A stretch of 19,124 nt of DNA from a virus (IMGVR_UViG_2695420427_000009); one strand, 5' to 3'. Counted from the stretch's first letter, positions 3,347 through 17,929 are shown. Made by a program: numbers and translations. The notes: generated by a model from the sequence alone, not told the origin.

Positions 3347-3512
3347 GGTATGCACTCCGTTTTATTGGTCGTGCTACCACCAGAGTTGCGAATCTCTTTA
3401 TTGGTGGTAGCCCAGGCGGGGTTCGCAATACCGGTAAACGAAGAAACCGGCCCGACCGAAGTCAGCCCCACCTGAGCCACCATAATTCGGATATGCGCAG
3501 GTCTATACACAC

Positions 3513-3589
3513 AAAAAAACACGCTGGCGCGTGTTGTGCGCTTCGTTTTGCCAGGATTGCGAAGTCCCGACTGCGGGATTTACCGCAGC
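3513..3589 (-). ncRNA. Candidate c4/CA-like small regulatory RNA upstream of the Icd-like / antirepressor operon (~77 nt)
   Basis: Minus strand: promoter-like TTGACG-N18-TAAAGT, then a short transcript with three hairpins (CTGCGG-uaaauc-CCGCAG; CUUCG with a 14-nt loop; CACGC-gcca-GCGTG) ending in a U7 run, a canonical intrinsic terminator; loop sequence UUCGCAAU is complementary to AUUGCGAA in the downstream mRNA leader. Boundaries approximate. Confidence 0.4.
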
Positions 3590-5357: not shown

Positions 5358-5549
5358 TTACTCCCCGTTCACCGAAAAATCACGATAGAAACGTTTCCAC
5401 ATACGATAAGTCTGCGCGAGTTGTTCACCACGAAACATCGCCTTCCTGGCCTTCATGTTTTCCTTGTGAGACTTTCGATCTATGAACCAAAACCATTGCT
5501 GGAACACACAAAGCAAGAGACACAAAGATAATATCCACTGATTACCCAT
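5358..5549 (-). CDS. Putative small single-TM protein (63 aa), possibly coupled to repA
   Basis: In-frame ATG 2 nt after the repA stop codon gives MGNQWILSLCLLLCVFQQWFWFIDRKSHKEN..., a hydrophobic helix plus basic tail; the longer 102-aa form in the ORF track would overlap repA by about 125 nt. Confidence 0.35.
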   Translation of the reverse strand: MGNQWILSLCLLLCVFQQWFWFIDRKSHKENMKARKAMFRGEQLAQTYRMWKRFYRDFSVNGE

Positions 5550-8500
5550 AGAAAGCGCCCTGCTCTTCGTAGCTGCATGGGCTATTCCCGGTAATGTATT
5601 CACGTAACCGCCGCAGTTCATTGCTGGATAAGTGATCCATGAACTCTGTGAGGTACAGAGATGCAAACGTCATAGCTATGCTAGCTGATGACCATGATGA
5701 CATAGTGGCCAGCTCCTCACCGGAAAGCGCACTCATCGCCCAGGACTCAGGTACAACCACTGGCAACACAGCCAAAGCCTCAGAAATTACTGAATGAGGG
5801 GCGTTTTGAACCTGCTCGTTTGTGGATCGCGTTTTATCATCCATATATATATTGAGATCCAAATCGCGATCCATTTCGATGGCGGTCTTCTCGGCTTTAC
5901 GCGTTTTCAGGGTTAGGCCATCTTTCTGACGCTGAGCAAGAATATCCAGCATAAATGCCGCTGATTCAGGCTCAACAAAACGCAAGGTTGGACGCTTATC
6001 GCCGTCTCTGCCGCGACGTTTACCTGTTTTAAGGCCAAGAGAGTCGCAAATGTTTTTAAACAACGCTTCCGGCACTTTAGGCTTCCCTTTTGGCGTCATA
6101 AAACCACCAATGTGCAGAACGTTATTCAACAGGTCACGGCGTTCGGCTGTCATGAGGTTATCTCGAGCAAATTTGAGACGCTCCTGAGTCGCCTCGCCGG
6201 TCATAGTCTCAGGGTTGATACCGCAGTCGATAAAGTACTGCCGGAGAGTTGCTGATTTAAGCGCATAGAAACCGCGCGCCCCGACTTCAACAGTAGGAGT
6301 AGCTTTTACCTTGTGATCGATTATTCCAGGGAATTTAGTTTTAAAGACATCATCAGCCTGCTCGCGAGTCATCGCGGTCACTACAAAATATTGCCACTGT
6401 CCCGCCTGACGGTATGCGTAGGTAAAATTGATGGCTGCTTCTTCCCGGTCGTAACGACGAGCTGTTACCTCATCTAAAAGCATTGTTTCATAGCGGCGAA
6501 CTTTGTCTCGAGCACCATCGAAATAGAATTTCAGCGTGCCTTCTTCAACCGGTAGTTTCAGTTCGTTTTCAATATCCCAGCGGACAAGTTTTGCCTGTTC
6601 TTCAAGCGTCAGCGCGCGTTTTTTTAGCAGTTCTTCACGCTCTGATTCTTGTGGAGTTTCTGTATTGAGATGCAGATCCAGTGTCTGTTCCCACACAATA
6701 TCCCGCGCTTCTTTACGCAGCTCTTTACCGATATCATTCGCAGCATAATCGGTGGCCAGCGGCGATACCTTATAACCGTCGCTGTGCATGATGCAGATCA
6801 TGTTGCTGGCGTAGTCGTTACGCGCAGTCGCTTCAATAGCGGCTGCTTTAATTTTCATCCTGGTAAAGTCGGTATTGGCCACCCCCATTGATATACGGTC
6901 GCCATCGAAAACGACATCCGTCAGTTCACCGTTCATACCTGCGGTAGCAAGCAATGCCTGGGCGAATGCTCGTTCTATTTTTTGCGGGTCAGTTTCACGT
7001 TTTGCACGAGCTTTATCAAAGCCGATAATAAATTCTTTTGCTGTACGGTCGCGGCGTAGCATTTGCACTGCGTCGCTGGGTACAACTTCACCACAGAACA
7101 TGCCGAAATGACGGTCAAAATGTTTTTGCTCAATCGACACGCCGGATGAAATAGACGGGCTATAAATCAGGCCGTCGTATTTTTTGACCATCTTTTTCGG
7201 TTGATTGGTAAATGCTTCAACTTCTGGCTCTGGTTTGTTTTTCTGGTTTACACACAGAAATTTCTTACCAGGAAAATGCATTCTCAGGGTGGCGGTCACA
7301 TCTTCTGCAAAGGTGGAGCTGTCGGTGGCCAACATGATTTTTTCGCCATTCGATACAGCTTTCACCACCTCGGTCATAATGCGATCTTTTTCTGTATAAA
7401 AAACCCGGATTGGCTCACCTGTTTCGCGGTTGCGAACATCAACAGGTAATTCAATTACGTGGATCTGCAGCCATGCCGGTAAACCTAGTTCTTCACGGCG
7501 TTTCATAGCCAGTTCAGCCAGGTCAACCAGCAGATCGTTCGCATCAGCATCCACCATTATTGGGTGTTGTTCCGTTCTGGCCAGCGCGTCAATTAACGTA
7601 TTGAATACAGCCACCGGGTTTTCCATAGCCCGACCGGAAAGAACGGCACGTAGCCCTTGCGTGGCCTCGTCAAAGCCAAAATAGTCGTGCTGGCGCATCA
7701 ATGGTTGCCAGCAGTTTTTAACAATCGAGTTTATGCAGATGGTCAGTTTACTGGCGTATGGAGCCATTTCCTGATAGCCAGGGTCCTGATAGTGCAGGAT
7801 ATCGGCTTTTACACCTTTTCCTTCTGTCATCATTTCCCACAGGCCACCAATAAGGGAAACACGGTGAGCAACAGAGATACCACGTTCTGAGCTATGCATT
7901 AAAGGTCGTAACAATCCAGTAGATTTGCCGGAACCCATACCAGCACGAACGATGACTATCCCCTGTAGTGATTGCACATACTTCAGGACGTCATCGGTCA
8001 TTACCGAAGTTTCAAAACGCTTATAGGTGATATGTTGAGGACGTTTATTGGGATCAGTTATTCGTTCGCTGAATGAGCGCGGAGCCTGGGCAATACGGCA
8101 CTTTTTATTCAGGCGACGGGCAATGTGGTCTTTTACCGTAGCGCGATAGATATTTTCCAGCCCAATTTCACGCAGGGCGATGCAGAACATGTTAAATAAG
8201 TCTGACGGACTGTTAGGAACCGGACAGGTTAGCATGCCAATATCCACTGCTCTCAGCAGCTCTTTGGCAAAAGTACGACGGTTATCCCGCTTAATTGTCT
8301 TCAGGCGGTTGAGCGTCAGAGATAGCAAATCAGTGCCAGTTTTCAGGCGGTTTGCAGTTGCAAACAGTTGACGTGCTGTTTCACGAAGTCCACGTAGTTT
8401 GTGCAGGTCGTTGAAGTCACTGCACTCCATTTGCGGATCGTCTTCAAAAGTTGGATAGACGCAGCGGACATCGTTGAATTTCGATAAGATTTCATAGCCA

Positions 8501-9537
8501 GTCCGCAGGCCGGTATTCCCTTTTCCTTCTGTAGCTGATTTCCGGTCATTATCCAGTGCGCAGGTGATTTTTGCCGCCGGGTACATGTTTACCAGTTGTT
8601 CCACAACATGAACCATGTTGTTAGCGGATACAGCGACAACCACAGCGTCAAAGCGTTTATCTTTTTTCGTGGCAAGCCAGATGGATGCACCAGTAGCAAA
8701 ACCTTCTGTAACAGCGATGTTTTGCGCCCCTTTCAGCTCACCGATAACAAAGCAGGCACCGACGAAATCGCCGCTGGTTACGGCGCTGGTCTGGTATTTT
8801 CCACCTTGTTTGTCGATTCGCTGCCAACCAACAATACGACCATCGTAACGACCGTCCAGGTGAGCCAGAGGGATAGCCATATACGTGGTTGGCCCCCTGC
8901 TCCATTTTGCGCTGTCGTGACTGGTCACGCGACGCACATCACACGAATTAAAAACGTCACGAATACCTTTTTTAATCGCATATGGCCATGAGCCGTCTTC
9001 TGCAGGAGCATGTTCCCAAGCACTGTGGAATGCCAGCCATCCCAGCAAACGTTCATGGTCCATTTGGTTGTTTTTCAGGTCATTAATTCGTTTTTGTTCT
9101 TCACGGCGACGACGTGCTTCGGCCTGACGTTCTATTCTTGCCCGTTCTTCTTCCGGTTGTGCGACCACGGTCGCATTATTCCGTTGTTGCTCACGGCGAT
9201 ATTCAGAAAACAGGAAGGAGAAACCGCTCCATGAGCCAGCATCGCTGCCTTTATGGACGAAGTTAATGAACGGGTAATCAATCCCTTTGCTGTGTTCCAG
9301 CCGGGAGTAAATTTCTACGCGTCCTTTGAGGCTCTTTTCGAGAGCTTCTGGGGATGTTTTATTGTATGAAGAGTAACGCTCAACACCCCCGCGAGGGTTG
9401 AGTTGGATGTTGTCGGAACAGGCAGACCAGTTGATACCAGCCATCTGTGCCAGCTCGGTTAGTTCATCCCGTGCTGCTTCAATTAGCGAGAACGGATCGC
9501 TGCCAAAGCGATCCGCATAGAAATCGTTTAATGTCAT
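5542..9537 (-). CDS. repA: Replication protein RepA, primase-helicase (1331 aa)
   Basis: Size matches N15 RepA (~1320 aa); N-terminal primase-like region with acidic motifs (TEGFATGASI, ALDNDRKS); central Walker A VRAGMGSGKST; located between the ant region and cB as in N15. Confidence 0.9.
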   Translation of the reverse strand: MTLNDFYADRFGSDPFSLIEAARDELTELAQMAGINWSACSDNIQLNPRGGVERYSSYNKTSPEALEKSLKGRVEIYSRLEHSKGIDYPFINFVHKGSDAGSWSGFSFLFSEYRREQQRNNATVVAQPEEERARIERQAEARRRREEQKRINDLKNNQMDHERLLGWLAFHSAWEHAPAEDGSWPYAIKKGIRDVFNSCDVRRVTSHDSAKWSRGPTTYMAIPLAHLDGRYDGRIVGWQRIDKQGGKYQTSAVTSGDFVGACFVIGELKGAQNIAVTEGFATGASIWLATKKDKRFDAVVVAVSANNMVHVVEQLVNMYPAAKITCALDNDRKSATEGKGNTGLRTGYEILSKFNDVRCVYPTFEDDPQMECSDFNDLHKLRGLRETARQLFATANRLKTGTDLLSLTLNRLKTIKRDNRRTFAKELLRAVDIGMLTCPVPNSPSDLFNMFCIALREIGLENIYRATVKDHIARRLNKKCRIAQAPRSFSERITDPNKRPQHITYKRFETSVMTDDVLKYVQSLQGIVIVRAGMGSGKSTGLLRPLMHSSERGISVAHRVSLIGGLWEMMTEGKGVKADILHYQDPGYQEMAPYASKLTICINSIVKNCWQPLMRQHDYFGFDEATQGLRAVLSGRAMENPVAVFNTLIDALARTEQHPIMVDADANDLLVDLAELAMKRREELGLPAWLQIHVIELPVDVRNRETGEPIRVFYTEKDRIMTEVVKAVSNGEKIMLATDSSTFAEDVTATLRMHFPGKKFLCVNQKNKPEPEVEAFTNQPKKMVKKYDGLIYSPSISSGVSIEQKHFDRHFGMFCGEVVPSDAVQMLRRDRTAKEFIIGFDKARAKRETDPQKIERAFAQALLATAGMNGELTDVVFDGDRISMGVANTDFTRMKIKAAAIEATARNDYASNMICIMHSDGYKVSPLATDYAANDIGKELRKEARDIVWEQTLDLHLNTETPQESEREELLKKRALTLEEQAKLVRWDIENELKLPVEEGTLKFYFDGARDKVRRYETMLLDEVTARRYDREEAAINFTYAYRQAGQWQYFVVTAMTREQADDVFKTKFPGIIDHKVKATPTVEVGARGFYALKSATLRQYFIDCGINPETMTGEATQERLKFARDNLMTAERRDLLNNVLHIGGFMTPKGKPKVPEALFKNICDSLGLKTGKRRGRDGDKRPTLRFVEPESAAFMLDILAQRQKDGLTLKTRKAEKTAIEMDRDLDLNIYMDDKTRSTNEQVQNAPHSVISEALAVLPVVVPESWAMSALSGEELATMSSWSSASIAMTFASLYLTEFMDHLSSNELRRLREYITGNSPCSYEEQGAFYG
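5824..5872. other. Origin-like structure inside the 3-prime part of repA: inverted repeat GGATCGCG / CGCGATCC flanking AT-rich CATATATATATT, with three GATC sites
   Basis: Seen directly in sequence; N15 ori is reported to lie within the 3-prime part of repA (established knowledge); exact correspondence not verifiable here. Confidence 0.3.
8916..8929. repeat. Palindrome CGTGAC-tg-GTCACG (copy 2 of palindrome family B), inside repA coding sequence
   Basis: Exact 12-mer GTGACTGGTCAC shared with 14851-14862 and, in opposite orientation, with 3650-3661. Confidence 0.6.
9158..9175. other. SopB-type centromere-like palindrome TGTGCGACC-ac-GGTCGCA (copy 1 of family A), inside repA coding sequence
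   Basis: Arms TGCGACC / GGTCGCA with 2-bp centre; 6 of 7 arm positions match the F-plasmid sopC core TGGGACC-AC-GGTCCCA as I recall it; same element at 11602 and 16589. Confidence 0.6.
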
Positions 9538-9586
9538 TTTTTAGCCATTCCATGCGAATTATGTTTTTTCGGGTTGAAAAAATCCG

Positions 9587-9653
9587 CAGGAGCAGCCACA
9601 ATAAACGCATCTTGAATTGACGGAATCCGTCGCGTTACTGTGGCTGCTTCCTG
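9587..9653. promoter_or_regulatory. Long inverted repeat in the repA leader (CAGGAGCAGCCACA ... TGTGGCTGCTTCCTG, ~14 bp arms, 38-nt spacer containing palindrome GACGGA-a-TCCGTC)
   Basis: Seen in sequence 50-115 bp upstream of the repA start codon; function inferred (leader structure or countertranscript). Confidence 0.35.
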
Positions 9654-9660
9654 AAAAGGA

Positions 9661-9688
9661 CCCGAGTTTGCCGACTCGGGTTTTTTTT
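9661..9688 (+). terminator. Intrinsic terminator on the plus strand (CCCGAGT-ttgccg-ACTCGGG followed by T8), antisense to the repA leader
   Basis: Perfect 7-bp GC-rich stem followed directly by 8 T; there is no plus-strand gene upstream for at least 4 kb, so it would terminate a short antisense transcript or act on the minus strand as a weak cB-repA attenuator. Confidence 0.5.
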
Positions 9689-9782
9689 CGTCTTTTTTCT
9701 GCTGCTGTAACCTGAGTCAACCCACAGAACATATGCTCTGCATTAAACCAGATTTACAGCAAACAATAAACCCCGTATTAAG

Positions 9783-10379
9783 TCATCTACCCTCAACCAT
9801 GAATGATTTGATCGTTCCGACTATTTGGTGAACAAATTCAAGATCGCTTTTCCTGAAGATAGCGCGTTGTGAATTTGTTCCGTCCAGATAGTAATTTTCA
9901 TCATCAAAACGGGCCAGGCGCTGGATGGTGATATTTCCTGCAGTATCACGAACCAGAACATCCTCGCCGGGGACCAGTTCCAGCGCAGAATCGACCAGGA
10001 GAAAATCGCCAGGCTGATAGTTTCCCTGCGCCAGATTGCTGATAGTTAACGCATAAACAGTATTGCGCTGGCTGATGAATGGCAGGAATCGCTCAGTATT
10101 TGGAACCTGTCCTGGCTTCCACTCTTCATCAGGTCCACTTTCAGTTGTGCCAATAACAGGAATGCGATCAGGGTCATATTCTGTCCCATACAGCACCCAA
10201 TGCACTGGCTTGCGTAAGCATTTAGCCAGGGCAATACCTATCTCCAGTGACGGCATTACGTCGCCACGTTCTAAGTTTTGGACGCCTGCAATAGAGATAT
10301 CGACAGCCTCAGCAACTTCTCGCAACGTCAGCTTCATCTCTAAACGGCGTGCTTTCAGTCGTTCGCCTCGTGTTTTCAT
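9783..10379 (-). CDS. cB: Prophage repressor CB (cI-like; N-terminal HTH_XRE, C-terminal S24/LexA-like fold), 198 aa
   Basis: HTH LTLREVAEAVDISIAGVQNLERG at the N-terminus; divergent from the Cro-like gene across an operator-bearing intergenic region; size matches N15 CB. Confidence 0.8.
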   Translation of the reverse strand: MKTRGERLKARRLEMKLTLREVAEAVDISIAGVQNLERGDVMPSLEIGIALAKCLRKPVHWVLYGTEYDPDRIPVIGTTESGPDEEWKPGQVPNTERFLPFISQRNTVYALTISNLAQGNYQPGDFLLVDSALELVPGEDVLVRDTAGNITIQRLARFDDENYYLDGTNSQRAIFRKSDLEFVHQIVGTIKSFMVEGR

Positions 10380-10401
10380 AGCTTAATCATAAATGATCTT
10401 C

Positions 10402-10443
10402 TTATAGCTGGCTATAAAATTTATTTATTATAGCTGGCTTTAA
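10402..10443. promoter_or_regulatory. Operator pair in the cB-cro intergenic region: TTATAGC-tg-GCTATAA (10402-10417, perfect 16-bp palindrome) and TTATAGC-tg-GCTTTAA (10428-10443)
   Basis: Two 16-bp sites spaced 26 bp centre to centre; the second abuts the cro ATG; an additional palindrome ATCAT-aa-ATGAT sits at 10386-10397. Confidence 0.6.
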
Positions 10444-10692
10444 ATGAGATTTATTGCTTATAATAACCGCATGAAACCAGAAGAACTTATTCGCCACTTT
10501 GGCAGTGTAGAAAAAGCAGCGGCTGGGGTAGGTGTAACACCCGGTGCTGTTTACCAATGGTTAACCGCTGGAGAGATTCCTTCATTGCGGCAAAGTGATA
10601 TTGAAGTTCGTACTGCTTACAAGCTGAAGAGTGACTTTACAACTCGGCGGGTAAAGCAGTCGATTAAGGAGAGCCGTAAGCGTGGAGCTTGA
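10444..10692 (+). CDS. cro: Cro-like HTH regulator (82 aa)
   Basis: Small ORF divergent from cB with HTH SVEKAAAGVGVTPGAVYQWL; an alternative start at M10 (10471) is possible. Confidence 0.7.
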   Translation: MRFIAYNNRMKPEELIRHFGSVEKAAAGVGVTPGAVYQWLTAGEIPSLRQSDIEVRTAYKLKSDFTTRRVKQSIKESRKRGA

Positions 10693-11392
10693 GTATATAC
10701 GCAGCTGCGTCTCCACGGCATTGGCTGATATTCATTATCGCCAGCGTGGCATCCTAGAGGTCCAGCTTGAGCAGATGCGTCTAGGCAGATCAGGACGCTT
10801 TAACAATAAACCAGTCCGGTCAATCAGTGTAGGTGATGATAACTCATACGAAGTGTCCGTTCCTGCTGAGCCGGTTAGATTCCACCAGGGGAAAACATTT
10901 AAACAATCATCAATGTTGCTCACTGATATTGATTTTCAGAGCGCCAGCTGGCGCAGGGCTATTGGTCAGTTGAATAACGAGGAATCAGCCTGGCTTTATT
11001 ATTGCTACGGATGCAAGCCTGATTACAACAATGATGTGATTGTTTGTCAGTGGTTATGGCTTGATTTTCTGGTTGCTCATTCGGGGGGCGGCTTTAAAAA
11101 AATGAAGGCCTCCACGAAAAAAGCCATGCGGAAATTGATTTATTACGCGGCACAGCAGGTTAAATCAGAACTTACGTGTGCTGAGGCAGTTGATGAGAGA
11201 GAACAGGACAGGCATCTGAGTTTTCTACTGAATATATCTATTGATAGCTGGAGACAAGATTATAAAGAACGCTGGCTTTTAATTAAGTCGCGATGTCTGA
11301 GCTTAAATCGAACTGCATTATTAAATGCGGCGGAGAAGCGCAGTGAAATCATCAAACGCCATCGGGCAGGAAGTGCCATTCTGCCTTTGTAA
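10682..11392 (+). CDS. Q-like putative late-gene antiterminator (236 aa from GTG 10682; first in-frame ATG at 10775)
   Basis: Assigned mainly by synteny (cB-cro-Q order as in N15 and lambdoid phages) and a Cys-containing motif YYCYGC; no motif I can verify by eye. Confidence 0.4.
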   Translation: MELEYIRSCVSTALADIHYRQRGILEVQLEQMRLGRSGRFNNKPVRSISVGDDNSYEVSVPAEPVRFHQGKTFKQSSMLLTDIDFQSASWRRAIGQLNNEESAWLYYCYGCKPDYNNDVIVCQWLWLDFLVAHSGGGFKKMKASTKKAMRKLIYYAAQQVKSELTCAEAVDEREQDRHLSFLLNISIDSWRQDYKERWLLIKSRCLSLNRTALLNAAEKRSEIIKRHRAGSAILPL

Positions 11393-11399
11393 ACAAGTT

Positions 11400-11645
11400 A
11401 TGTTCAGGAAACCGTCGAAGCCAGAATTAAGGTATTCGGGGGTAAGAAATGAATATGTTATCTGGTGTCCAACTTGTGGTTACAGGACACGACCAGATAG
11501 TAATAAGCAGTCTGTAATTGCCGATTGGTATTTATCAAATCAGCCAGGTAATAAGCATATAGAAAATCTTTGGATTAAGCGTTACTTGGAAATCAGAGAG
11601 GGTGCGACCGTGGTCGCACAAGAAAATGAAAATAACGCCATTTAA
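11400..11645 (+). CDS. Small Cys-containing protein (81 aa), unknown function
   Basis: First ATG after the Q-like stop; sequence MFRKPSKPELRYSGVRNEYVIWCPTCGY...; its 3-prime end contains a family A centromere-like palindrome. Confidence 0.45.
   Translation: MFRKPSKPELRYSGVRNEYVIWCPTCGYRTRPDSNKQSVIADWYLSNQPGNKHIENLWIKRYLEIREGATVVAQENENNAI
11602..11619. other. SopB-type centromere-like palindrome GTGCGACC-gt-GGTCGCAC (copy 2 of family A)
   Basis: Perfect 8-bp arms; the 18-mer is the exact reverse complement of the core at 16591-16608. Confidence 0.6.
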
Positions 11646-11829
11646 GCAGGGGCCGATGACGCATGATGAAGCAGAGCGTCTTTCAGATACTTATCGGCGG
11701 CGTGGTAAGAAAGTTCTGGTTGTTCGTTCTGATTTTTTAGGTGATGGATATTGCGTTTATGTTCATTTACCTGAATCAGAAAGAACGCCAAAACCATCCA
11801 GAACATATCAACAGAAAATTTGGGTATAG
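11626..11829 (+). CDS. Hypothetical protein (67 aa)
   Basis: ORF-track entry 11602-11829 trimmed to the first ATG; basic small protein; start uncertain. Confidence 0.35.
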   Translation: MKITPFKQGPMTHDEAERLSDTYRRRGKKVLVVRSDFLGDGYCVYVHLPESERTPKPSRTYQQKIWV

Positions 11830-11852
11830 ATAAACGTTGAGGAGAATTATTC

Positions 11853-12452
11853 GTGACTAATCAGATTATTTACGACAGGAAACGGTCTGATGTAATGATT
11901 GACCTTGAAACAATGGGTACTAACACATGTGCTCCAATTGTTTCTATCGGGGCAGTGTTTTTTTCTCCAGAAAGTGAGGAATTAGGTCCTACTTTTTATG
12001 TACCAGTGAATCTCAGAAGCTCGATGTTGAATGGTGGTGTCGCCGATGGTGATACCATTTTATGGTGGTTGAAACAGAGCAAGGAAGCCAGAGCCGCAAT
12101 TTGTACTAATGATGCCCTTGATATTAAGGATGCACTTTTTGAATTATCACACTTTATTACTTGCCATGCATGTAATTTAAAAAAATTGAAAGTATGGGGA
12201 AATGGAGCAACGTTCGATAATGTAATTTTACGCGGTGCTTATGAGCGCGTTGGCTTAGCCTGTCCGTGGGAATATTTTAATGATCAGGATGTTCGAACAA
12301 TCGTTAACCTTGGTCAGTTTATTGGTTTTAATCCTAAAAAAGATATGCCATTTGATGGCGAACGACACAATGCCCTGGCTGATGCTATTCATCAGGCTAA
12401 ATATGTATCAGCAATTTTCTCCCGTCTTGTAAAAGGGCAAGGAGAATCGTAA
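11853..12452 (+). CDS. DEDDh-type 3-prime to 5-prime exonuclease (DnaQ-like fold), 199 aa
   Basis: GTG start 7 nt after GAGGAG RBS; motifs MIDLET (Exo I), WGNGATFD (Exo II), ERHNALADA (Exo III with His). Confidence 0.75.
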   Translation: MTNQIIYDRKRSDVMIDLETMGTNTCAPIVSIGAVFFSPESEELGPTFYVPVNLRSSMLNGGVADGDTILWWLKQSKEARAAICTNDALDIKDALFELSHFITCHACNLKKLKVWGNGATFDNVILRGAYERVGLACPWEYFNDQDVRTIVNLGQFIGFNPKKDMPFDGERHNALADAIHQAKYVSAIFSRLVKGQGES

Positions 12453-12871
12453 TGGCAAAGGCTTTTACACCAGAACAGAGGGAAGAACTGAATAAACAAA
12501 TTGTGGAACTCGTGCGCCTGAATGGACGAGGAACGGTTAGGCAACTTGCGGATGAAACTGGTATTAGCCGGTGTGCTGTTAGTCGTTTATCAAGAGAGCT
12601 TGCTGCCAGTGGTGATTTGTATATCTCTGGCTCCGGGATATTTCTGTCTGCACAAGCACGCAAGGACTGGCAAAACGCCCGTAAAAAACTATCAAGAGTA
12701 AAGCCGAAGACATCGGTAGTGGTTGATCCAGACCTTATCTGGTCATTACCTGACGGAGAAATACGTCGTTACGACAGGCGCTTGAACATGATTTGTCACG
12801 ATTGCCGGAAAAGTGAAGTTATGCAGCGTGTGCTGGCTTTTTATCAGGGAAATTTTCAGGAGGTGGCGTAG
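12452..12871 (+). CDS. HTH DNA-binding protein (139 aa), unknown function
   Basis: HTH-like TVRQLADETGISRCAVSRLSRELAASG; start overlaps upstream stop (TAATG). Confidence 0.55.
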   Translation: MAKAFTPEQREELNKQIVELVRLNGRGTVRQLADETGISRCAVSRLSRELAASGDLYISGSGIFLSAQARKDWQNARKKLSRVKPKTSVVVDPDLIWSLPDGEIRRYDRRLNMICHDCRKSEVMQRVLAFYQGNFQEVA

Positions 12872-13161
12872 TGAATATCGACACCACGATAACGATCGAT
12901 ACGGCCCTAAATATCGGTCTGGCACTTCTCGGTTGGTTTTACATCATGTTCAGTGCGGGGAAGTGGGCGGCCTCTGTTTTTCTAAAGCAGTGGGGAAAGC
13001 ACCGCAAACAGGAAAGACGCCAGAAAGTGTTAGAGGCGTTCTATGACGCATTTGAACTTAGCCGCATTGAGCCAGGCACAACAGCCAAGATAGCGACAAA
13101 AGGCGACCTGATGATAGTGATGTTCCGACAGGAGAGAGCAGAGAAAGGGGAATCAGCATGA
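12871..13161 (+). CDS. Small membrane protein (96 aa)
   Basis: GTG start 5 nt after strong AGGAGGTGG RBS; N-terminal TM helix ALNIGLALLGWFYIMF. Confidence 0.55.
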   Translation: MNIDTTITIDTALNIGLALLGWFYIMFSAGKWAASVFLKQWGKHRKQERRQKVLEAFYDAFELSRIEPGTTAKIATKGDLMIVMFRQERAEKGESA

Positions 13162-13736
13162 AATTTTCCAAATTTTCTGAGTTGGTGAATCGTATTTTGT
13201 CCAACAACCACAGCCATCGTCGCGATATGGATGTAACAATCGTTATTCATTCGCCTGGCAGCATTGGTTCAACACCTTCAGTTGAGGTTCAGTCAATTCA
13301 CGCTGGTTTTGATTGGGATTCCGGGAAAGTGCTTATTTTCCCATCACAGCCACTGACCACGCTAACACCAGAACAGATTACTGATATCACTGATAGTGTG
13401 CGCAAAGGTCAGTCCTGGCACGCATATCAGGAATACAAAAAGCATAAAGAGCAGTTGGAAAAATTGTCTATTGAGCTGGAAGCTGCAAGAAAGCGAATTT
13501 CAGAACAGGGAAATAAAGTAATACCAGTGTCAGCTGAATTGCCACCTGCAAATGAAAGTGTTCTGTTATTTGATGCTAACGGAGAAGGCTGGCTGATTGG
13601 CTGGCGTTCTCTCTGGTACACCTGGGGACAAAAGGAAACCGGAGAATGGCAGTGGACATTTCAGGTCGGGGATCTTGAAAACGTCAATATCACTCATTGG
13701 GCAGTAATGCCGAAAGCACCGGAGGCTGGAGCATAA
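13158..13736 (+). CDS. Phage protein with DUF551-like C-terminal domain (192 aa)
   Basis: ATGA overlap with upstream gene; RBS GAAAGGGG; C-terminus ...GWLIGWRS...THWAVMPKAPE resembles DUF551 proteins common in lambdoid phages. Confidence 0.55.
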   Translation: MKFSKFSELVNRILSNNHSHRRDMDVTIVIHSPGSIGSTPSVEVQSIHAGFDWDSGKVLIFPSQPLTTLTPEQITDITDSVRKGQSWHAYQEYKKHKEQLEKLSIELEAARKRISEQGNKVIPVSAELPPANESVLLFDANGEGWLIGWRSLWYTWGQKETGEWQWTFQVGDLENVNITHWAVMPKAPEAGA

Positions 13737-14512
13737 TGATCACGTTTACCGACAAAGAACTGATTAAAGAAATCAAAGAGCGAATCGGTAGCCTGGACGT
13801 TCGAGACAATATTGAGCGCCGTGCTTATGAAATTGCACTGGCATCGCTGGAAGCAGATCCAGTTGCTTATATTTTCAAACATCCAGCCGGAAAATTATTC
13901 TGGTCGTTGACCGATGAAAGCAATAAAGAACAACCGGACGTGATTTCTGTTTATGCTGCCTCACCTGCACCGATATCGTCGGAGGCCATTGAATACGCAA
14001 TTGAATACATCCGCAGTATCGCTTTTCACATCGATGAAGACGATTACCACGGCAAACATATTGCGTATTTCATGCGACAAGCATTGGCCTGGCTGGAAGG
14101 GCATTCATGCAGCGACGACAGGCTGGGTAAGGCCGACAATCAACCCGCATCTGGTAACCAGGCTGCCGAATCCAATCGCGGTAATGAGTGGACTGGCAAT
14201 CCTGATATTGATAACGCCATCATCATGCTCGATCGCATAGATACGCTGGAAAATTGCGATGATGACCGTATTGAGGCGGTTAAGGCTGTTTTGCGTAGAC
14301 TGGCTGGCAACTATCCGGTAATTCCGGATGGTTGGATAAGCTGTAGTGAGCAAATGCCAGATGATGGTCGTATTCAGTTTTCTGTTTCACTTCCAGCAGC
14401 ATGTGGTGGAGATAAATATTTTATTGATGGTGTATTTCAACCTTTGAGATATGAGCGTGACTGTGAAAAAGCGGTTGTGGCCGCTGGCGGTGTAGTTAAT
14501 TGGGTTAAGTAA
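13736..14512 (+). CDS. Phage protein with DUF551-like C-terminal domain (258 aa)
   Basis: Start moved to the ATG overlapping the upstream stop (ATGA); the ORF-track start at 13697 would overlap the previous gene by 40 nt. Confidence 0.55.
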   Translation: MITFTDKELIKEIKERIGSLDVRDNIERRAYEIALASLEADPVAYIFKHPAGKLFWSLTDESNKEQPDVISVYAASPAPISSEAIEYAIEYIRSIAFHIDEDDYHGKHIAYFMRQALAWLEGHSCSDDRLGKADNQPASGNQAAESNRGNEWTGNPDIDNAIIMLDRIDTLENCDDDRIEAVKAVLRRLAGNYPVIPDGWISCSEQMPDDGRIQFSVSLPAACGGDKYFIDGVFQPLRYERDCEKAVVAAGGVVNWVK

Positions 14513-14527
14513 TTTTTAGGAGGATTT

Positions 14528-14854
14528 ATGGCGCTGACACCGGCAGAACGGCAAAGAAGACGCAGGGAACGGTTGAAGAAGGAAGGAACATCAAGACGTG
14601 ACTGGATTCTGGAACCTGACGAGTTACGTATGTTGGGGGAAATTTGTGTATTGCGTAGACCAGGGCGAGTTCCATATTCAGAGAACGAAGTCATCGGACT
14701 GCTGATCAGGAAAAACTATAAGGAGTTGCAGAAACAGCTATCTACTACTTGTCCGCGATGTGGTCAAAAAATGCCTGTTTCAGAATGCATTTTTGATGGT
14801 GAAGGCTCATGCCACCTTACAACCACGAGGCTGAAACTTGCGCTCAAAGTGTGA
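14528..14854 (+). CDS. Hypothetical basic protein with C-terminal Cys cluster (108 aa)
   Basis: Strong RBS TAGGAGGA 5 nt upstream; Arg-rich N-terminus (RQRRRRERLKKEG) and CPRCG...C...C Zn-ribbon-like tail. Confidence 0.6.
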   Translation: MALTPAERQRRRRERLKKEGTSRRDWILEPDELRMLGEICVLRRPGRVPYSENEVIGLLIRKNYKELQKQLSTTCPRCGQKMPVSECIFDGEGSCHLTTTRLKLALKV

Positions 14855-14862
14855 CTGGTCAC
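14851..14862. repeat. Palindrome GTGAC-tg-GTCAC (copy 3 of palindrome family B), spanning the stop codon of the 14528 ORF
   Basis: Exact 12-mer identical to 8917-8928. Confidence 0.6.
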
Positions 14863-14872
14863 GGAGGGATAA

Positions 14873-15028
14873 ATGGACAAAAAGGCATTGCTTTTTGAAA
14901 TGATACGAAAACGGAGCGAAAAGAGCTTTTCTGATGGTGGTGATGGGCTTTTGAAAGTGGTTGGGCGAGGCGTAGGAAGGGAACATAAGTATCGGACTAC
15001 AAAGATATTTAACCAGTTAATCCATTGA
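14873..15028 (+). CDS. Small hypothetical protein (51 aa), absent from the ORF track
   Basis: ATG preceded by GGAGGG RBS at 7-nt spacing; MDKKALLFEMIRKRSEKSF... Confidence 0.35.
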   Translation: MDKKALLFEMIRKRSEKSFSDGGDGLLKVVGRGVGREHKYRTTKIFNQLIH

Positions 15029-15029
15029 A

Positions 15030-15046
15030 AGTTGGCTATAAAATTT
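15030..15046. promoter_or_regulatory. 17-mer AGTTGGCTATAAAATTT, 16/17 identical to the right half of the cB-cro operator plus flank (10406-10422)
   Basis: Direct comparison within the window; suggests a CB operator half-site and/or a shared -10 element TATAAAAT. Confidence 0.45.
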
Positions 15047-15054
15047 GAGTTTTA

Positions 15055-15074
15055 CCCTGTAATTTTATACAGTA
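15055..15074. promoter_or_regulatory. LexA (SOS) box CCCTGTAATTTTATACAGTA
   Basis: CTGT-N8-ACAG with AT-rich spacer and 3-prime TA; the only such site in the window; 23 bp upstream of the 15097 ORF. Confidence 0.6.
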
Positions 15075-15096
15075 TCAAATAACCTTTTTTAATTAA

Positions 15097-15315
15097 ATGG
15101 TATTAGATTCAATGACTGAAGCACCTGTATCAACTCTTGAAGAACTCGGATCAAACCTAAAAGACATCGACGCCGTTTTGGATCTGGTTAGCGTTGCTCT
15201 GGCTTCTCCAGAAGCCAGCTTGCATCTTGGCGAGATTTCACGACTTGTTAGTATGTCGCGGGAGATTGCTCAGAATTGCCAACAAGTTATTGCTGTTGAG
15301 TGTTTACATCATTGA
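15097..15315 (+). CDS. Small protein (72 aa) under a LexA box, candidate SOS-inducible antirepressor (N15 AntC-like role)
   Basis: ORF directly downstream of the LexA box; no strong RBS (alternative start at 15112); functional call is inference from context. Confidence 0.45.
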   Translation: MVLDSMTEAPVSTLEELGSNLKDIDAVLDLVSVALASPEASLHLGEISRLVSMSREIAQNCQQVIAVECLHH

Positions 15316-15321
15316 TACACA

Positions 15322-15341
15322 CCCCGCCCTTCTGGACGGGG
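15322..15341. terminator. GC-rich hairpin between convergent genes (possible bidirectional terminator)
   Basis: CCCCG...CGGGG stem with 4-nt loop; no clean U tract on either strand. Confidence 0.3.
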
Positions 15342-15358
15342 TAGCGAAAAGGGTCTAA

Positions 15359-15646
15359 TCAATAGACGGCATTAATATTAATCGTTGCACCGCATGCTTG
15401 GGCATATTTTGATAAAGTTTTCATGCTTGCCCCTAAAGGATTGCTTTCCAGGCGGCTGATAGCTGACGGGCGCAATCCCATTCGTTCAGCCAGAGCTGAC
15501 TTCGTTAAACCTGCTCTTTCCCTCATTTCGTATAACATTTCGACCATCTCCAGCTCTTTATCGGCCTCTTCATATCCTTTGATGGCTTCTGGAGTGTTGA
15601 GAAGTTTTTCTTTTACTTCGTTAAACGGGATGCCTTTCGCTTTCAT
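15359..15646 (-). CDS. HigA-like antitoxin, HTH_XRE family (95 aa)
   Basis: HTH LTKSALAERMGLRPSAISRLE; start overlaps toxin stop (TGATG); located downstream of toxin as in HigBA-type modules. Confidence 0.75.
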   Translation of the reverse strand: MKAKGIPFNEVKEKLLNTPEAIKGYEEADKELEMVEMLYEMRERAGLTKSALAERMGLRPSAISRLESNPLGASMKTLSKYAQACGATININAVY

Positions 15647-15957
15647 CAGTTCATCTCCTTCAGGCGAGTTCTGGCGATTTCGATAGCCTTCACCGGTGTT
15701 TTCTGTGTCTTTTTTACAAATGCATGCAATAGATAAATTTCGTTACCAGTCGCGTAGGCGTACAGCGTTCTTGCGATGTTTTTATCCCCTACTCGTAGTT
15801 CAAAAAGCCCTCCACCTATTACACGGCTATGGGGCATCTTCAGTTTGTTGCCTTCTTTCTCCAGTCGCTCAATTAATCTGGTCATGCGACCTCGCAAATC
15901 ATCTGGTAGTTCAAGCAGTTCATCCAGTGCTGCAGGGTGGGTTATCACGTTAAACAT
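15646..15957 (-). CDS. RelE/ParE-superfamily toxin, HigB-like / phage Gp49-like (103 aa)
   Basis: GGAGG RBS 8 nt upstream; sequence ...GGGLFELRVGDKNIARTLYAYATGNEIYLLHAFVKKTQKTP matches the Gp49-like toxin pattern; toxin-first gene order. Confidence 0.75.
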   Translation of the reverse strand: MFNVITHPAALDELLELPDDLRGRMTRLIERLEKEGNKLKMPHSRVIGGGLFELRVGDKNIARTLYAYATGNEIYLLHAFVKKTQKTPVKAIEIARTRLKEMN

Positions 15958-16015
15958 ATTATAGCCTCCATATCCATAAAATACACCAAAACAAGAAAAC
16001 AGCGCAAATTAAAAA

Positions 16016-16033
16016 TTTCACTAAAAAGTGAAA
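16016..16033. promoter_or_regulatory. Palindromic operator candidate TTTCACT-aaaa-AGTGAAA in the divergent promoter region of the TA module
   Basis: Perfect 7-bp arms with 4-bp spacer, about 60 bp upstream of the toxin start codon. Confidence 0.45.
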
Positions 16034-16122
16034 AATAACACTGGATGTGTTCGTTTGGCAGAGTTACAGTTCGTGTCATTGAGGGGCAATAACCAACTAA
16101 CTATATGAATTTGGAGGATATT

Positions 16123-16344
16123 ATGAATTATCAAGGTAACGAAAAAATGCGCGACGACGTTGCGGAGATAGCTAACGAACTGTATGAGTTGTGGCAGAAG
16201 GTTGAACGTTTCGAAAAGGAATATGGTTTCAACAGTACCAACCTAGCAGACCGACTGGCTGGTCGCTTAGTTGGGACTATGGGGCCAAAACTGGCTGAGT
16301 TGAACCGCTTTATGGCTGATGTTGATTTCCAGTTTCAAGATTGA
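16123..16344 (+). CDS. Hypothetical protein (73 aa from ATG 16123; ORF track starts at 16105)
   Basis: GGAGGA RBS lies inside the 16105 ORF, 6 nt upstream of the second ATG, so 16123 is the more likely start. Confidence 0.5.
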   Translation: MNYQGNEKMRDDVAEIANELYELWQKVERFEKEYGFNSTNLADRLAGRLVGTMGPKLAELNRFMADVDFQFQD

Positions 16345-16357
16345 TTAGAGAGGCGTT

Positions 16358-16585
16358 ATGAATATTAATGAAATTCGTGGAAATATGACTGAAGCGGCCC
16401 TGAGTGTGGAATGTGTTATGCGTGGATACCCACGCATTTCCCTGAAAGAGTTAAGCGAAGCCTGTTTTTTGAGTCAAGCTGCCGTTGAATTTATCATCGA
16501 ACAGATGATCTGTTTTGGGGTTGCAAAGCGTAGCGGGTCTGGTCGATATTCTTTGACCGATGAATATAAGCAGGCAACTTTCTAA
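16358..16585 (+). CDS. Small putative winged-helix DNA-binding protein (75 aa)
   Basis: RBS GAGAGG upstream; sequence ...ISLKELSEACFLSQAAVEFIIEQMICFGVAKRSGSGRYSLT resembles small wHTH regulators; weak assignment. Confidence 0.45.
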   Translation: MNINEIRGNMTEAALSVECVMRGYPRISLKELSEACFLSQAAVEFIIEQMICFGVAKRSGSGRYSLTDEYKQATF

Positions 16586-16588
16586 AAA

Positions 16589-16610
16589 CTGTGCGACCAC
16601 GGTCGCACAG
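16589..16610. other. SopB-type centromere-like palindrome CTGTGCGACC-ac-GGTCGCACAG (copy 3 of family A), intergenic
   Basis: Perfect 10-bp arms with 2-bp centre, 4 nt after the stop of the 16358 ORF. Confidence 0.65.
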
Positions 16611-16693
16611 CACAAAAACGAAAAAGCTTGGCAAAATGACGGTTTTTAGTTATTGTTTTGTTAAGTTGGGTTTTTTGTACCCAATAGATAACA

Positions 16694-16717
16694 AGCCGCC
16701 TTTATGGCGGTTTTTTT
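16694..16717 (+). terminator. Intrinsic terminator (AGCCGCC-tttat-GGCGG followed by T7)
   Basis: GC stem followed directly by TTTTTTT on the plus strand. Confidence 0.6.
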
Positions 16718-16803: not shown

Positions 16804-16817
16804 CGCGATGCGCATCG
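16804..16817. promoter_or_regulatory. Perfect 14-bp palindrome GCGATGCGCATCGC immediately upstream of the methyltransferase
   Basis: Seen directly; overlaps the alternative upstream ATG (16808) of the methyltransferase ORF. Confidence 0.4.
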
Positions 16818-16852
16818 CCGGGTTAGCTTACCCAGGCAAAAAAATAATAGCT

Positions 16853-17929
16853 ATGTTCAAAACCACTAATATTCATGGCGCACAACTCGTTTGCGCAGAT
16901 TCTCTGCAATTTATCAAAACCATCCCTGATAACTCGGTCAATTTGATTGCAACAGACCCACCATACTTCGGCGTAAAGGCTAACGCATGGGATAACCAGT
17001 GGGATAGCGATGCTGACTTTTTGGGGTGGATTGACGAATTTTTGGCAGAATTTTGGCGGATATTGGCCCCTAATGGCAGCCTGTATATGTTTACCGGCTC
17101 TCGCCTTGCGTCAAAAATTGAATTATTAACTCGCGACCGTTTCAATGTTCTGAACCATATCATTTGGGCTAAACCCAGTGGTATGTGGCGCGGTTGTCAT
17201 AAAGAAAGTTTAAGGGCTTATTTTCCTGCTACTGAAAGAATATTATTTGCAGAGCATTACGGCACGTCAGGTTATGCTAAAGGTCAGTCAGGTTATGCTT
17301 CAAAATGTGCAGATTTAAGAAAAAATATTTTTTCTCCACTAATTGATGCTTTTTCGCTGGCTCGCCGTCAGTTAGATATATCAGCCGCAGACATTAATTC
17401 AGCGACAGGAAAGCAGATGTGTTCACACTGGTTTTCTTATTCGCAGTGGCGGCTTCCATCATTAATTGATTTTAATAAACTATGCGAATTATTTCGCAGG
17501 AAGGCAGATTCACTCGGTGTCCCGTGTCCATATCCTTTTAATGTTGATTATTCAGAACATGAAAAGCGTTATAGCGATCTGAAATTGCATTATGAGGAAG
17601 AAAAGAAGCAGTATGATGATTTGAAGGCTCAGTATGAAAATTTACGCCGTCCATTTCATGTTACTGCTGATGTACCTTATACCGATGTATGGGAGTTTCC
17701 TCCTGTGCAATATTATCCTGGCAAGCACCCATGTGAAAAACCTGCAGCGATGATGGAACATATTATAAAGAGTAGTTCACGCCCCGGAGATATCGTTGCC
17801 GATTTCTTTATGGGATCAGGCTCAACTATTAAAGCTGCGCTGAAGTTAGGACGTCAGGCAATAGGTATTGAGATTGAGGGCGAACGTTATCTTCAGACAG
17901 TTGATGAAGTGAAAAAGTTATTTGAGTAA
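16853..17929 (+). CDS. Orphan DNA methyltransferase, beta-class (N6-adenine or N4-cytosine; motif IV DPPY before motif I FxGxG), 358 aa
   Basis: N-terminal DPPY and C-terminal FFMGSGST with an intervening target-recognition region; no restriction endonuclease partner visible; start could be the upstream ATG at 16808. Confidence 0.75.
   Translation: MFKTTNIHGAQLVCADSLQFIKTIPDNSVNLIATDPPYFGVKANAWDNQWDSDADFLGWIDEFLAEFWRILAPNGSLYMFTGSRLASKIELLTRDRFNVLNHIIWAKPSGMWRGCHKESLRAYFPATERILFAEHYGTSGYAKGQSGYASKCADLRKNIFSPLIDAFSLARRQLDISAADINSATGKQMCSHWFSYSQWRLPSLIDFNKLCELFRRKADSLGVPCPYPFNVDYSEHEKRYSDLKLHYEEEKKQYDDLKAQYENLRRPFHVTADVPYTDVWEFPPVQYYPGKHPCEKPAAMMEHIIKSSSRPGDIVADFFMGSGSTIKAALKLGRQAIGIEIEGERYLQTVDEVKKLFE

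What the first reader, a model, noticed from the sequence alone, without database searches (positions are those of the whole stretch)
9158..16610. Three dispersed sopC-like palindromes: a scattered SopB-type centromere system
The element GTGCGACC-NN-GGTCGCAC occurs three times (9158-9175 inside repA coding sequence; 11602-11619 at the end of a small gene downstream of the Q-like ORF; 16589-16610 intergenic before the methyltransferase). Its arms match the F-plasmid SopB binding core TGGGACC-AC-GGTCCCA at 6 of 7 positions with the same 2-bp centre. N15 is known to carry its centromere sites scattered through the genome rather than next to sopAB, and those sites have been implicated in gene regulation as well as partition. 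The partition operon itself is not in this window and is predicted to lie upstream of telN. The positions next to the Q-like region and before the methylase/lysis block suggest a link between partition-protein binding and late gene control.
Basis: partly seen in the sequence, partly recalled or inferred. Interest (0 to 1): 0.7.

Follow-up and report, generated by a model that had tools for sequence, protein, structure and literature searches.

The report
N15-type scattered SopB centromere sites
The three palindromes are real and are direct counterparts of the already characterised, scattered partition-protein (SopB) binding sites IR1-IR3 of the linear phage-plasmid N15, so this is a correct reading of a known system and not a new one.

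Summary
The 16-bp core TGCGACC-NN-GGTCGCA occurs exactly three times in the window, at 9160-9175, 11603-11618 and 16592-16607. About 3.5e-5 copies are expected by chance, and 0 of 200 shuffles gave any.

The window is the left arm of an N15-like linear phage-plasmid of E. coli (telN, repA, cB/cro/Q, late promoter, methylase, lysis genes). N15 carries the same 18-mer at the same three places, plus a fourth. These are the published SopB-binding sites IR1-IR4. The phiKO2 GenBank record annotates its four counterparts as "putative plasmid partitioning site".

No sopAB lies in the window. Every complete close relative has sopAB at the other end of the linear prophage, next to telN in the virion map. 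The SopB of those relatives keeps N15's recognition-helix residues.

Across relatives the three positions are fixed:
- inside repA, around codons 121-126;
- inside the small ORF QD1, 221 nt after Q;
- 19-20 nt upstream of the -35 of the late promoter.

The better comparator is N15's own sites rather than F sopC, whose consensus these sites do not match. A link between N15 Sop and late gene expression is already published for N15 (Ravin, Rech and Lane 2008). Novelty: already known. Interest is low.

The parts
9159..9176 (.). Site 1, the counterpart of N15 IR1: GTGCGACCACGGTCGCAT. The 16-bp core is perfect. It lies inside repA (minus strand) around codons 121-126, where codons 122-126 encode A-T-V-V-A.
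   Evidence: The alignment with N15 and phiKO2 repA shows an invariant block across the site while flanking wobble positions vary.
11602..11619 (.). Site 2, the counterpart of N15 IR2: GTGCGACCGTGGTCGCAC. It lies inside the C-terminal part of the small ORF QD1 (11325-11645), 221 nt after the end of Q, and again encodes A-T-V-V-A.
   Evidence: The same offset from Q is seen in 31 viral-contig sites, with QD1 identity down to 67%.
16591..16608 (.). Site 3, the counterpart of N15 IR3: GTGCGACCACGGTCGCAC (extended palindrome 16589-16610). It is intergenic, starting 5 nt after the gp51-like stop codon and ending 19 nt before the -35 of the late promoter.
   Evidence: The spacing to TTGGCA is 19-20 nt in all 27 distinct related sequences.
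16628..16656 (+). Late (Q-dependent) promoter-like element, TTGGCA-17-TATTGT. It aligns with the annotated -35/-10 of N15 (41162-41190) and with the 'putative late promoter' of phiKO2.
16693..16713 (+). Intrinsic terminator just downstream of the late promoter, the presumed target of Q antitermination. It is conserved in N15 and phiKO2.
5542..9537 (-). repA (1331 aa primase/replicase), which hosts site 1.
10682..11392 (+). Q-like antiterminator gene, upstream of site 2.
11325..11645 (+). ORF QD1 (106 aa, with a CPTC zinc-ribbon-like motif), which hosts site 2.
   Evidence: It is annotated 'orf QD1' in N15 U45242 and in YDC107_1. It has a weak, sub-threshold Lar-like Pfam match.
16358..16585 (+). 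gp51-like ORF (75 aa) that ends just before site 3.

Best explanation
The three palindromes are centromere (parS-type) sites of an N15-type Sop partition system, counterparts of N15 IR1, IR2 and IR3. A dimer of the element's SopB is expected to bind each 16-bp inverted repeat TGCGACC-NN-GGTCGCA. SopB is a ParB-family protein, encoded outside this window at the other end of the linear prophage. Binding would use its helix-turn-helix plus the conserved arginine that corresponds to F SopB R219. SopB would then nucleate a larger partition complex, which the SopA ATPase positions so that each daughter cell inherits the low-copy linear plasmid prophage. The sites are scattered across the replication and regulatory arm rather than clustered next to sopB. 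Site 3 sits at a fixed 19-20 nt upstream of the -35 of the Q-dependent late promoter, so SopB bound there is also placed to influence late transcription, as has been reported for N15.

Shown here: the sequence and positional identity with N15 and phiKO2 sites, DNA-level conservation of the sites, the presence of SopAB in relatives, and conservation of the recognition residues.

Inferred: binding, partition activity and the late-gene effect in this particular element.
For: - The sites are statistically impossible by chance.
- The same 18-mer occurs four times in N15, three of them at the homologous positions. These are IR1-IR4 in Table 4 of PMC7205306, and N15 SopB forms foci on a 4xIR array.
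- The phiKO2 record annotates the four homologous sites as putative partition sites.
- All complete close relatives (PhiR46_1, RL465 pIII, pPEC1013-3) carry the same three sites plus two more, and also carry sopA-sopB.
- Their SopB scores 405-407 bits against NCBIfam PRK13698 (cut-off 274) and contains the Pfam SoPB_HTH domain. The RL465 SopA scores 734 bits against PRK13705 (cut-off 725).
- Their SopB is 73-74% identical to N15 SopB. The recognition helix D-R-N-I-x-x-R is invariant among N15, phiKO2, PhiR46_1 and RL465, and the R219 equivalent is kept. F SopB has K191 where these proteins have N, which fits the single base change per arm between the F and N15 sites.
- The pattern is exact in at least 120 viral-contig stretches, at fixed offsets from Q/QD1, gp51/methylase and inside repA, even where the flanking proteins are only 58-80% identical.
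- Inside repA and QD1 the site is an invariant block, while neighbouring third-codon positions vary.
- Site 3 lies 19-20 nt from the -35 in 27 distinct sequences.
Against: - No sopAB gene lies in the window and the window's own replicon was not found in any collection. The best match is 98.4% identical over 99% of the window, so the cognate protein is inferred from relatives.
- No binding or stabilisation data exist for this element.
- The primary N15 papers (Ravin and Lane 1999; Ravin, Rech and Lane 2008; Casjens et al. 2004; also Grigoriev and Lobocka 2001, not attempted) could not be read here. The late-expression link therefore rests on a title and on my memory of the abstract.
- Site 1 has one mismatch in the outermost base of the 18-mer, although its 16-bp core is perfect.
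Confidence: 0.9

Rival explanations
1. The palindromes are mainly transcriptional operators. They would be bound by SopB or by another phage DNA-binding protein, such as the small gp51-like winged-helix protein encoded just upstream of site 3. Their job would be to control the late promoter and repA or Q-region expression, with partition a minor or absent role.
For: Site 3 sits at a strictly conserved 19-20 nt from the -35 of the late promoter in 27 distinct sequences. Some contigs even duplicate it in tandem there (L014, L083, L084). A published title links N15 Sop to late gene expression. In phiKO2, gp51 is annotated as a winged-helix protein and its gene ends next to the site.
Against: N15 SopB forms partition-type foci on these exact sequences, and the sites are treated in the literature as the N15 centromere (PMC7205306). 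Two of the three sites lie inside coding sequences, far from any promoter-like element; no promoter or terminator was found around site 2. No sopC-like tandem array lies next to sopB in the complete relatives, so these dispersed sites are the only candidate centromere. The gp51-like protein has no significant family match.
Confidence: 0.06
2. The palindromes act as nucleic-acid hairpins, as transcription terminators, RNA-processing signals or cruciforms, rather than as protein-binding sites.
For: Each can fold as a 6-9 bp stem with a 4-nt loop. The energies are -6.2 to -10.4 kcal/mol as DNA, with z-scores from -2.0 to -5.4. On the minus strand site 3 is followed by AGTTTTTAG.
Against: The terminator scan called none of the three sites. 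The T-run on the minus strand is not conserved; N15 has GATATCAG there. Two sites lie inside ORFs that have to be read through. A structural hairpin would tolerate compensatory changes, yet the arm sequence is identical in every copy and every genome, while the central 2 nt vary (AC, GT, TC, AT, GC). That is the signature of sequence-specific protein recognition.
Confidence: 0.02
3. The repeats are chance occurrences or a host-wide repeated element with no role specific to this replicon.
For: Single copies of the 18-mer occur in many unrelated GC-rich genomes, as expected from the size of that collection: 596 Gb divided by 4^16 is about 139.
Against: Only 3.5e-5 copies are expected in this window and three are found. 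In enterobacterial phage data the motif is confined to N15/phiKO2-type elements, at orthologous positions.
Confidence: 0.005

Closest known systems
Dispersed centromere sites IR1-IR4 of the N15 Sop partition system (Ravin and Lane 1999; used as a 4xIR array in PMC7205306)
   Same: The 16-bp core TGCGACC-NN-GGTCGCA and the G...C flanks are identical. The three locations are the same: repA around codon 121, just after Q inside QD1, and about 20 nt before the -35 of the late promoter. The gene order of the arm is the same. SopB in the closest relatives is 73-74% identical to N15 SopB with the same recognition-helix residues.
   Different: The central dinucleotides differ (AC, GT, AC here; AC, TC, AT, AC in N15). 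The imperfect base of the repA site is on the other arm. The lineage of this window has five sites rather than four: the IR4-type site is replaced by two copies 220 bp apart, which lie beyond the window's 3' end. Overall DNA identity to N15 is only about 76%.
Putative partition sites of Klebsiella phage phiKO2 (misc_feature annotations in NC_005857)
   Same: The 18-mer is identical, and there are four sites at homologous positions: in repA, after Q, before the late promoter and after the lysis region.
   Different: The host genus and the virion genes differ. Several Klebsiella relatives of phiKO2 have a further site directly after the major capsid gene, which the E. coli lineage lacks.
F plasmid sopC
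   Same: It belongs to the same type Ia ParABS family. The site is a 16-bp inverted repeat with 7-bp arms and a 2-bp centre, and 14 of 16 bases are identical. It is bound by a homologous SopB through the HTH plus R219.
   Different: The F site is TGGGACC-RY-GGTCCCA, with G rather than C at arm position 3. F has 10-12 tandem 43-bp repeats directly downstream of sopB, not dispersed single sites. F SopB does not function with the N15 sites, whereas N15 SopB can use both (PMC7205306). F SopB has K191 where the N15-type proteins have N.
Chromosomal parS sites (for example Bacillus subtilis Spo0J), dispersed around the origin
   Same: Single 16-bp palindromes are scattered over a region, several of them inside genes, and each nucleates ParB (background in PMC3177203).
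   Different: The consensus is different (tGTTNCACGTGNAACa), the ParB is type Ia chromosomal, and no promoter-coupled site is known.

Membership tests
N15-type dispersed Sop centromere (IR sites) | A 16-bp inverted repeat TGCGACC-NN-GGTCGCA, usually flanked by G...C. | tested here: met
   All three window sites have a perfect 16-bp core. N15 IR1-IR4 and the four phiKO2 sites have the same core.
N15-type dispersed Sop centromere (IR sites) | Single copies dispersed in the replication and regulatory arm at the N15 positions (in repA, after Q, before the late promoter), not a tandem array next to sopB. | tested here: met
   The position within RepA (aa 122-126), the offset from Q (221 nt) and the distance to the -35 (19-20 nt) match N15, phiKO2 and dozens of contigs.
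N15-type dispersed Sop centromere (IR sites) | A cognate sopA-sopB operon on the same replicon. | tested here: inconclusive
   The operon is not in the window and the window's own replicon was not found. All complete relatives at 97-98% identity have SopA and SopB that pass the NCBIfam equivalog cut-offs.
N15-type dispersed Sop centromere (IR sites) | SopB with N15-type DNA-recognition residues (HTH D-R-N-I-x-x-R plus the R219 equivalent). | tested here: met
   These residues are invariant in N15, phiKO2, PhiR46_1, pPEC1013-3 and RL465 SopB. This was tested on the relatives' proteins, not on the window's own.
N15-type dispersed Sop centromere (IR sites) | SopB binds the site, and a single site stabilises a plasmid when SopAB is supplied. 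| not testable with these tools
   This needs experiment. It has been shown only for N15 sequences (SopB foci on 4xIR, PMC7205306).
F-type sopC centromere | The SopB site consensus TGGGACC-RY-GGTCCCA. | tested here: not met
   Every arm here reads TGCGACC, a C in place of the middle G (arm position 3), so 14 of 16 bases match.
F-type sopC centromere | Tandem 43-bp repeats immediately downstream of sopB. | tested here: not met
   The sites are 2.4 and 5.0 kb apart in the window. No array lies next to sopB in the complete relatives.
Rho-independent terminator | A GC-rich hairpin followed by a conserved U-run. | tested here: not met
   The scans did not call the sites. No T-run is conserved on either strand across relatives.

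The most novel reading that the evidence does not exclude
The invariant 19-20 nt gap between the promoter-proximal SopB site and the -35 of the Q-dependent late promoter holds in every E. coli and Klebsiella lineage sampled, and the site is sometimes doubled in tandem. This could mean that SopB acts there as a direct, position-dependent transcription factor rather than through the general partition-complex effect described for N15. For example, it could hold the late promoter silent in the plasmid prophage by ParB spreading, or recruit or position RNA polymerase or Q after induction. That would make a ParB clamp a dedicated switch between plasmid maintenance and lytic growth.
Probability: 0.2. 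Interest if true: 0.45.

Novelty: already known. Interest (0 to 1): 0.15.

Why it matters
The main value is for annotation. The three palindromes can be labelled as N15-type SopB centromere sites (IR1-IR3 counterparts) in this and related E. coli phage-plasmids, whose public records (for example PhiR46_1) do not mark them. The comparative data add modest detail to a known system:
- three site positions are fixed across E. coli and Klebsiella telomere phages, while other positions are lineage-specific;
- the intragenic sites are held invariant at the DNA level;
- the late-promoter site keeps a constant spacing to the -35.

These points could guide experiments on how a partition protein couples plasmid maintenance to late gene expression. 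They do not open a new question.

Tried and rejected
- I tried to read the primary N15 and phiKO2 papers: Ravin and Lane 1999 (PMC94163), Ravin, Rech and Lane 2008 (PMC2394991 and its DOI), and Casjens et al. 2004 (PMC355964). None is held. A full-text search for N15 + SopB + antitermination found nothing. The late-expression mechanism therefore rests on a title and on my memory.
- I looked for the window's own replicon in the phage and E. coli genome collections. There is no identical record; the best is RL465 plasmid III at 98.4% identity over 99%.
That is the number expected by chance, about 139 in 596 Gb. It served only as a chance baseline.
- The terminator or hairpin reading was rejected: the scans made no call and no T-run is conserved.
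- I considered that the 46 viral-contig sites I could not classify at first might show a use of the motif outside partition. The two recurrent contexts that account for most of them map to phiKO2-like Klebsiella telomere phages, just after the major capsid gene, which is the same family of elements. A few of the rest, such as the site in the GC-rich L098, look like chance or were not followed up.
- The gp51-like and QD1 proteins gave no significant family match that would make either a candidate binder.
Full report
**What the window is.** The 19,124-bp window is the left (replication and regulatory) arm of an N15-like linear phage-plasmid of Escherichia coli. Megablast against phage records gives Escherichia phage PhiR46_1 (98.1% identity, 86% coverage) and YDC107_1 as the closest phages. 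N15 and Klebsiella phage phiKO2 match at about 74-76% over the conserved core. Among complete E. coli genomes the best match is RL465 plasmid III (98.4% over 99% of the window). Fifteen genomes cover at least 80% of it and none is identical. The gene order follows N15:
- telN, 106-2001
- antirepressor region
- repA, 5542-9537, minus strand
- cB repressor, 9783-10379, minus strand
- cro, then Q at 10682-11392
- the small ORF QD1, 11325-11645
- an exonuclease gene and several small genes
- a RelE/ParE toxin-antitoxin pair, 15359-15957, minus strand
- gp50- and gp51-like ORFs, 16105-16585
- DNA methylase, 16808-17929
- holin, lysozyme and Rz

**Checking the observation.** The pattern GTGCGACCNNGGTCGCAC, allowing up to 2 mismatches, occurs exactly three times: 9159-9176 (last base T rather than C), 11602-11619 and 16591-16608. 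No match occurred in 200 dinucleotide-preserving shuffles. The 16-bp core TGCGACCNNGGTCGCA is perfect in all three. The 8-mer half-site occurs nowhere else in the window. The only other match at up to 3 mismatches is a poor one at 10163. From base composition 3.5e-5 copies are expected, so P(>=3) is about 7e-15. The third range (16589-16610) correctly delimits a 22-bp extended palindrome.

**What the sites are.** N15 itself carries the same 18-mer four times:
- 33479-33496, inside repA (gene 37)
- 35930-35947, downstream of Q (gene 40)
- 41124-41141, after gene 51 and 20 nt before the annotated -35 of the late promoter
- 45561-45578, after gene 58

These four sequences with their flanks are the oligonucleotides IR1-IR4 listed as the 'N15 centromere' in Table 4 of PMC7205306. 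The genomic IR1 copy differs from the IR1 oligonucleotide by one base (GAGCGACC in the genome, GTGCGACC in the oligonucleotide). That paper states that N15 SopB forms normal foci on an array of the four sites and that F SopB works only with its own sopC and not with N15 IR1-4. It also states that the two SopB proteins are 49% identical. The RefSeq record of phiKO2 annotates four 18-bp 'putative plasmid partitioning site' features at the homologous places, and they have the same sequence. The window's sites are thus counterparts of IR1, IR2 and IR3 in both sequence and position.

**Positional conservation.**
- Site 1 lies around RepA codons 121-126 in the window, N15 and phiKO2. It is read as A-T-V-V-A, in ...QQRNNATVVAQPEE... 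here and ...QQRNGATVVAQPEE... in N15.
- Site 2 lies in the C-terminal part of QD1, 221 nt after Q, and is also read as A-T-V-V-A.
- In both coding regions the three-genome alignments show third-codon variation on either side of an invariant block that coincides with the palindrome. The sole exception is one synonymous change in N15 IR1 and the central dinucleotide. This indicates selection on the DNA sequence itself.
- Site 3 starts 5 nt after the gp51-like stop codon and ends 19 nt before TTGGCA. This is the -35 of a promoter-like element (TTGGCA-17-TATTGT, 16628-16656), which is followed by an intrinsic terminator (16693-16713).
- This block aligns with the annotated late promoter and terminator of N15 and phiKO2.

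**Spread in public data.** After classifying sites by neighbouring genes, and allowing one mismatch, the counts were:
- 36 just downstream of gp51 and about 206-267 nt upstream of the methylase gene
- 31 inside QD1, 221-227 nt after Q
- 22 inside repA
- the rest after DUF4406/gp57/gp58-type genes or upstream of the small terminase gene

Flanking proteins were as little as 58-80% identical. Among 27 distinct late-promoter sequences the gap between the promoter-proximal site and the -35 is always 19 or 20 nt. Three contigs carry a second copy in tandem, 47 bp further upstream. Forty-six sites initially had no classified neighbour. The two recurrent contexts that account for most of them map to phiKO2-like Klebsiella telomere phages, directly after the major capsid gene. 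There the palindrome is often extended to 22-26 bp. phiKO2 itself lacks this site. A few others, such as the GC-rich L098, look like chance and were not followed up. A scan of one genome per species produced mostly single hits in unrelated GC-rich genomes. That matches chance (about 139 expected in 596 Gb) and contrasts with the clustered, orthologous sites in N15-type elements.

**The partner proteins.** The window contains no sopA or sopB. The complete relatives do:
- PhiR46_1 has ParB at 43667-44656 and ParA at 44653-45822, next to telR.
- pPEC1013-3 has sopB-sopA ending about 600 bp before telN, in a virion-type permutation.
- RL465 plasmid III has sopA and sopB.

The SopB proteins of PhiR46_1 and RL465 score 405-407 bits against NCBIfam PRK13698 (cut-off 274), and the RL465 protein contains the Pfam SoPB_HTH domain. 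RL465 SopA scores 734 bits against PRK13705 (cut-off 725). The SopB proteins are 73-74% identical to N15 SopB.

They align to the solved F SopB DNA-binding domain (3mky, E = 6e-39). PMC3597684 names R190, K191, R195 and R219 of F SopB as the specificity determinants. The N15-type proteins all read D-R-N-I-x-x-R and keep the R219 equivalent, so only K191 is replaced, by N. The N15-type and F sites differ by exactly one base per arm, TGCGACC against TGGGACC (F consensus in PMC3177203). It is my inference that the K-to-N change and this base change go together. Window base 1 corresponds to base 98 of PhiR46_1. So in the prophage only about 100 nt and the hairpin telomere lie upstream, and sopAB is at the far end. 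The two are adjacent only across telRL in the virion map.

**Mechanism.** Several steps rest on family knowledge of type Ia ParABS systems rather than on tests here. In outline:
- SopB dimers bind each palindrome and load further SopB to build a partition complex.
- SopA then positions these complexes over the nucleoid, so the low-copy linear prophage is inherited by both daughter cells.

A second role in late gene expression has been reported for N15 (Ravin, Rech and Lane 2008, J Bacteriol 190:3538). I could confirm only the title, from a reference list. From memory, that study found that Sop proteins acting at IR sites enhance Q-dependent late expression. The constant 19-20 nt spacing of site 3 to the -35 fits a position-dependent effect. 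Binding, stabilisation and transcriptional effects have not been tested for this element.

**Rival explanations.**
- A hairpin or terminator role is unlikely. The scans do not call the sites, no T-run is conserved, two sites lie inside ORFs, and the arms are sequence-invariant while the centre varies.
- Binding by a different phage protein, such as the neighbouring gp51-like protein, cannot be excluded by computation. It is not needed, given the N15 data, and that protein has no significant family match.
- Chance is excluded.

**Comparison with known systems, and verdict.** The sites meet the sequence and position criteria of the N15-type dispersed Sop centromere. They fail both defining features of F sopC: the consensus and the tandem array next to sopB. 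The correct comparator is N15's own IR sites. The operon lies 'upstream of telN' only in the virion map. The lineage differs from N15 in small ways. It has five sites rather than four, with two copies 220 bp apart about 0.5-0.7 kb beyond the window's 3' end. The central dinucleotides also differ. This is a known system seen in a close relative of sequenced phage-plasmids. Novelty is 'already known' and interest is low.

Noticed in passing
window 3400-3487 (-) and 3514-3589 (-): Rfam gathering-level matches to the C4 antisense RNA (82 bits, threshold 45) and to isrK (52.8 bits, threshold 50). They lie in the antirepressor region and presumably correspond to the N15/P1-type anti-immunity small RNA locus.
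   Followed up: no
window 16628-16713: A late-promoter-like element (TTGGCA-17-TATTGT) and an intrinsic terminator, with a conserved AAGTTGGG box between them. This matches the Q-dependent late promoter region of N15 and phiKO2. The SopB site is always 19-20 nt upstream of the -35 in 27 distinct sequences.
   Followed up: partly
L014 (minus strand, site at 6844), L083, L084: In three viral contigs the promoter-proximal SopB site is duplicated in tandem: a perfect copy lies 47 bp upstream of the promoter-proximal copy, which reads ...GGTCGCAT.
   Followed up: no
window 9159-9176 and 11602-11619: Both intragenic sites are translated in the same register and encode the same pentapeptide A-T-V-V-A (RepA aa 122-126, QD1 aa 93-97). 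Flanking wobble positions vary between N15, phiKO2 and the window, but the site does not.
   Followed up: yes
L001 17793-17810 and 18013-18030 (also L005 28935 and 29155; L006 42650 and 42870), about 0.5-0.7 kb beyond the window's 3' end: The closest complete relatives have two further perfect sites 220 bp apart, after the DUF4406 gene. This gives five sites per replicon, against four in N15 and phiKO2.
   Followed up: partly
L126 4070-4087, L011 6382-6399 and about 35 other viral loci: Klebsiella phiKO2-like telomere phages (NAR688, KpLi5, 020009 and others, but not phiKO2 itself) carry an additional site directly after the major capsid gene. It is often extended to a 22-26 bp palindrome, and it sits where phiKO2 has a putative terminator.
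   Followed up: partly
window 11325-11645: The ORF QD1 (106 aa, overlapping the end of Q) has a CPTC zinc-ribbon-like motif and a sub-threshold Pfam match to the restriction alleviation protein Lar (21 bits, threshold 28.6). It is conserved at 67-100% identity across many contigs.
   Followed up: no
window 15359-15957 (-): A RelE/ParE-type toxin gene plus an HTH antitoxin gene, homologous to N15 genes 48 and 49. This is a second plasmid-maintenance module in the same arm.
   Followed up: no
L005 and L127 (NZ_LT906558.1, 61.5 kb): The RL465 'plasmid III' record contains inverted duplicate copies of telN, the antirepressor region and repA at one end, and of sopAB and the tail-fibre genes at the other. 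Several of the duplicates are frameshifted. This looks like assembly read-through of the hairpin telomeres rather than real sequence. YDC107_1 shows the same at its telN/repA end.
   Followed up: no
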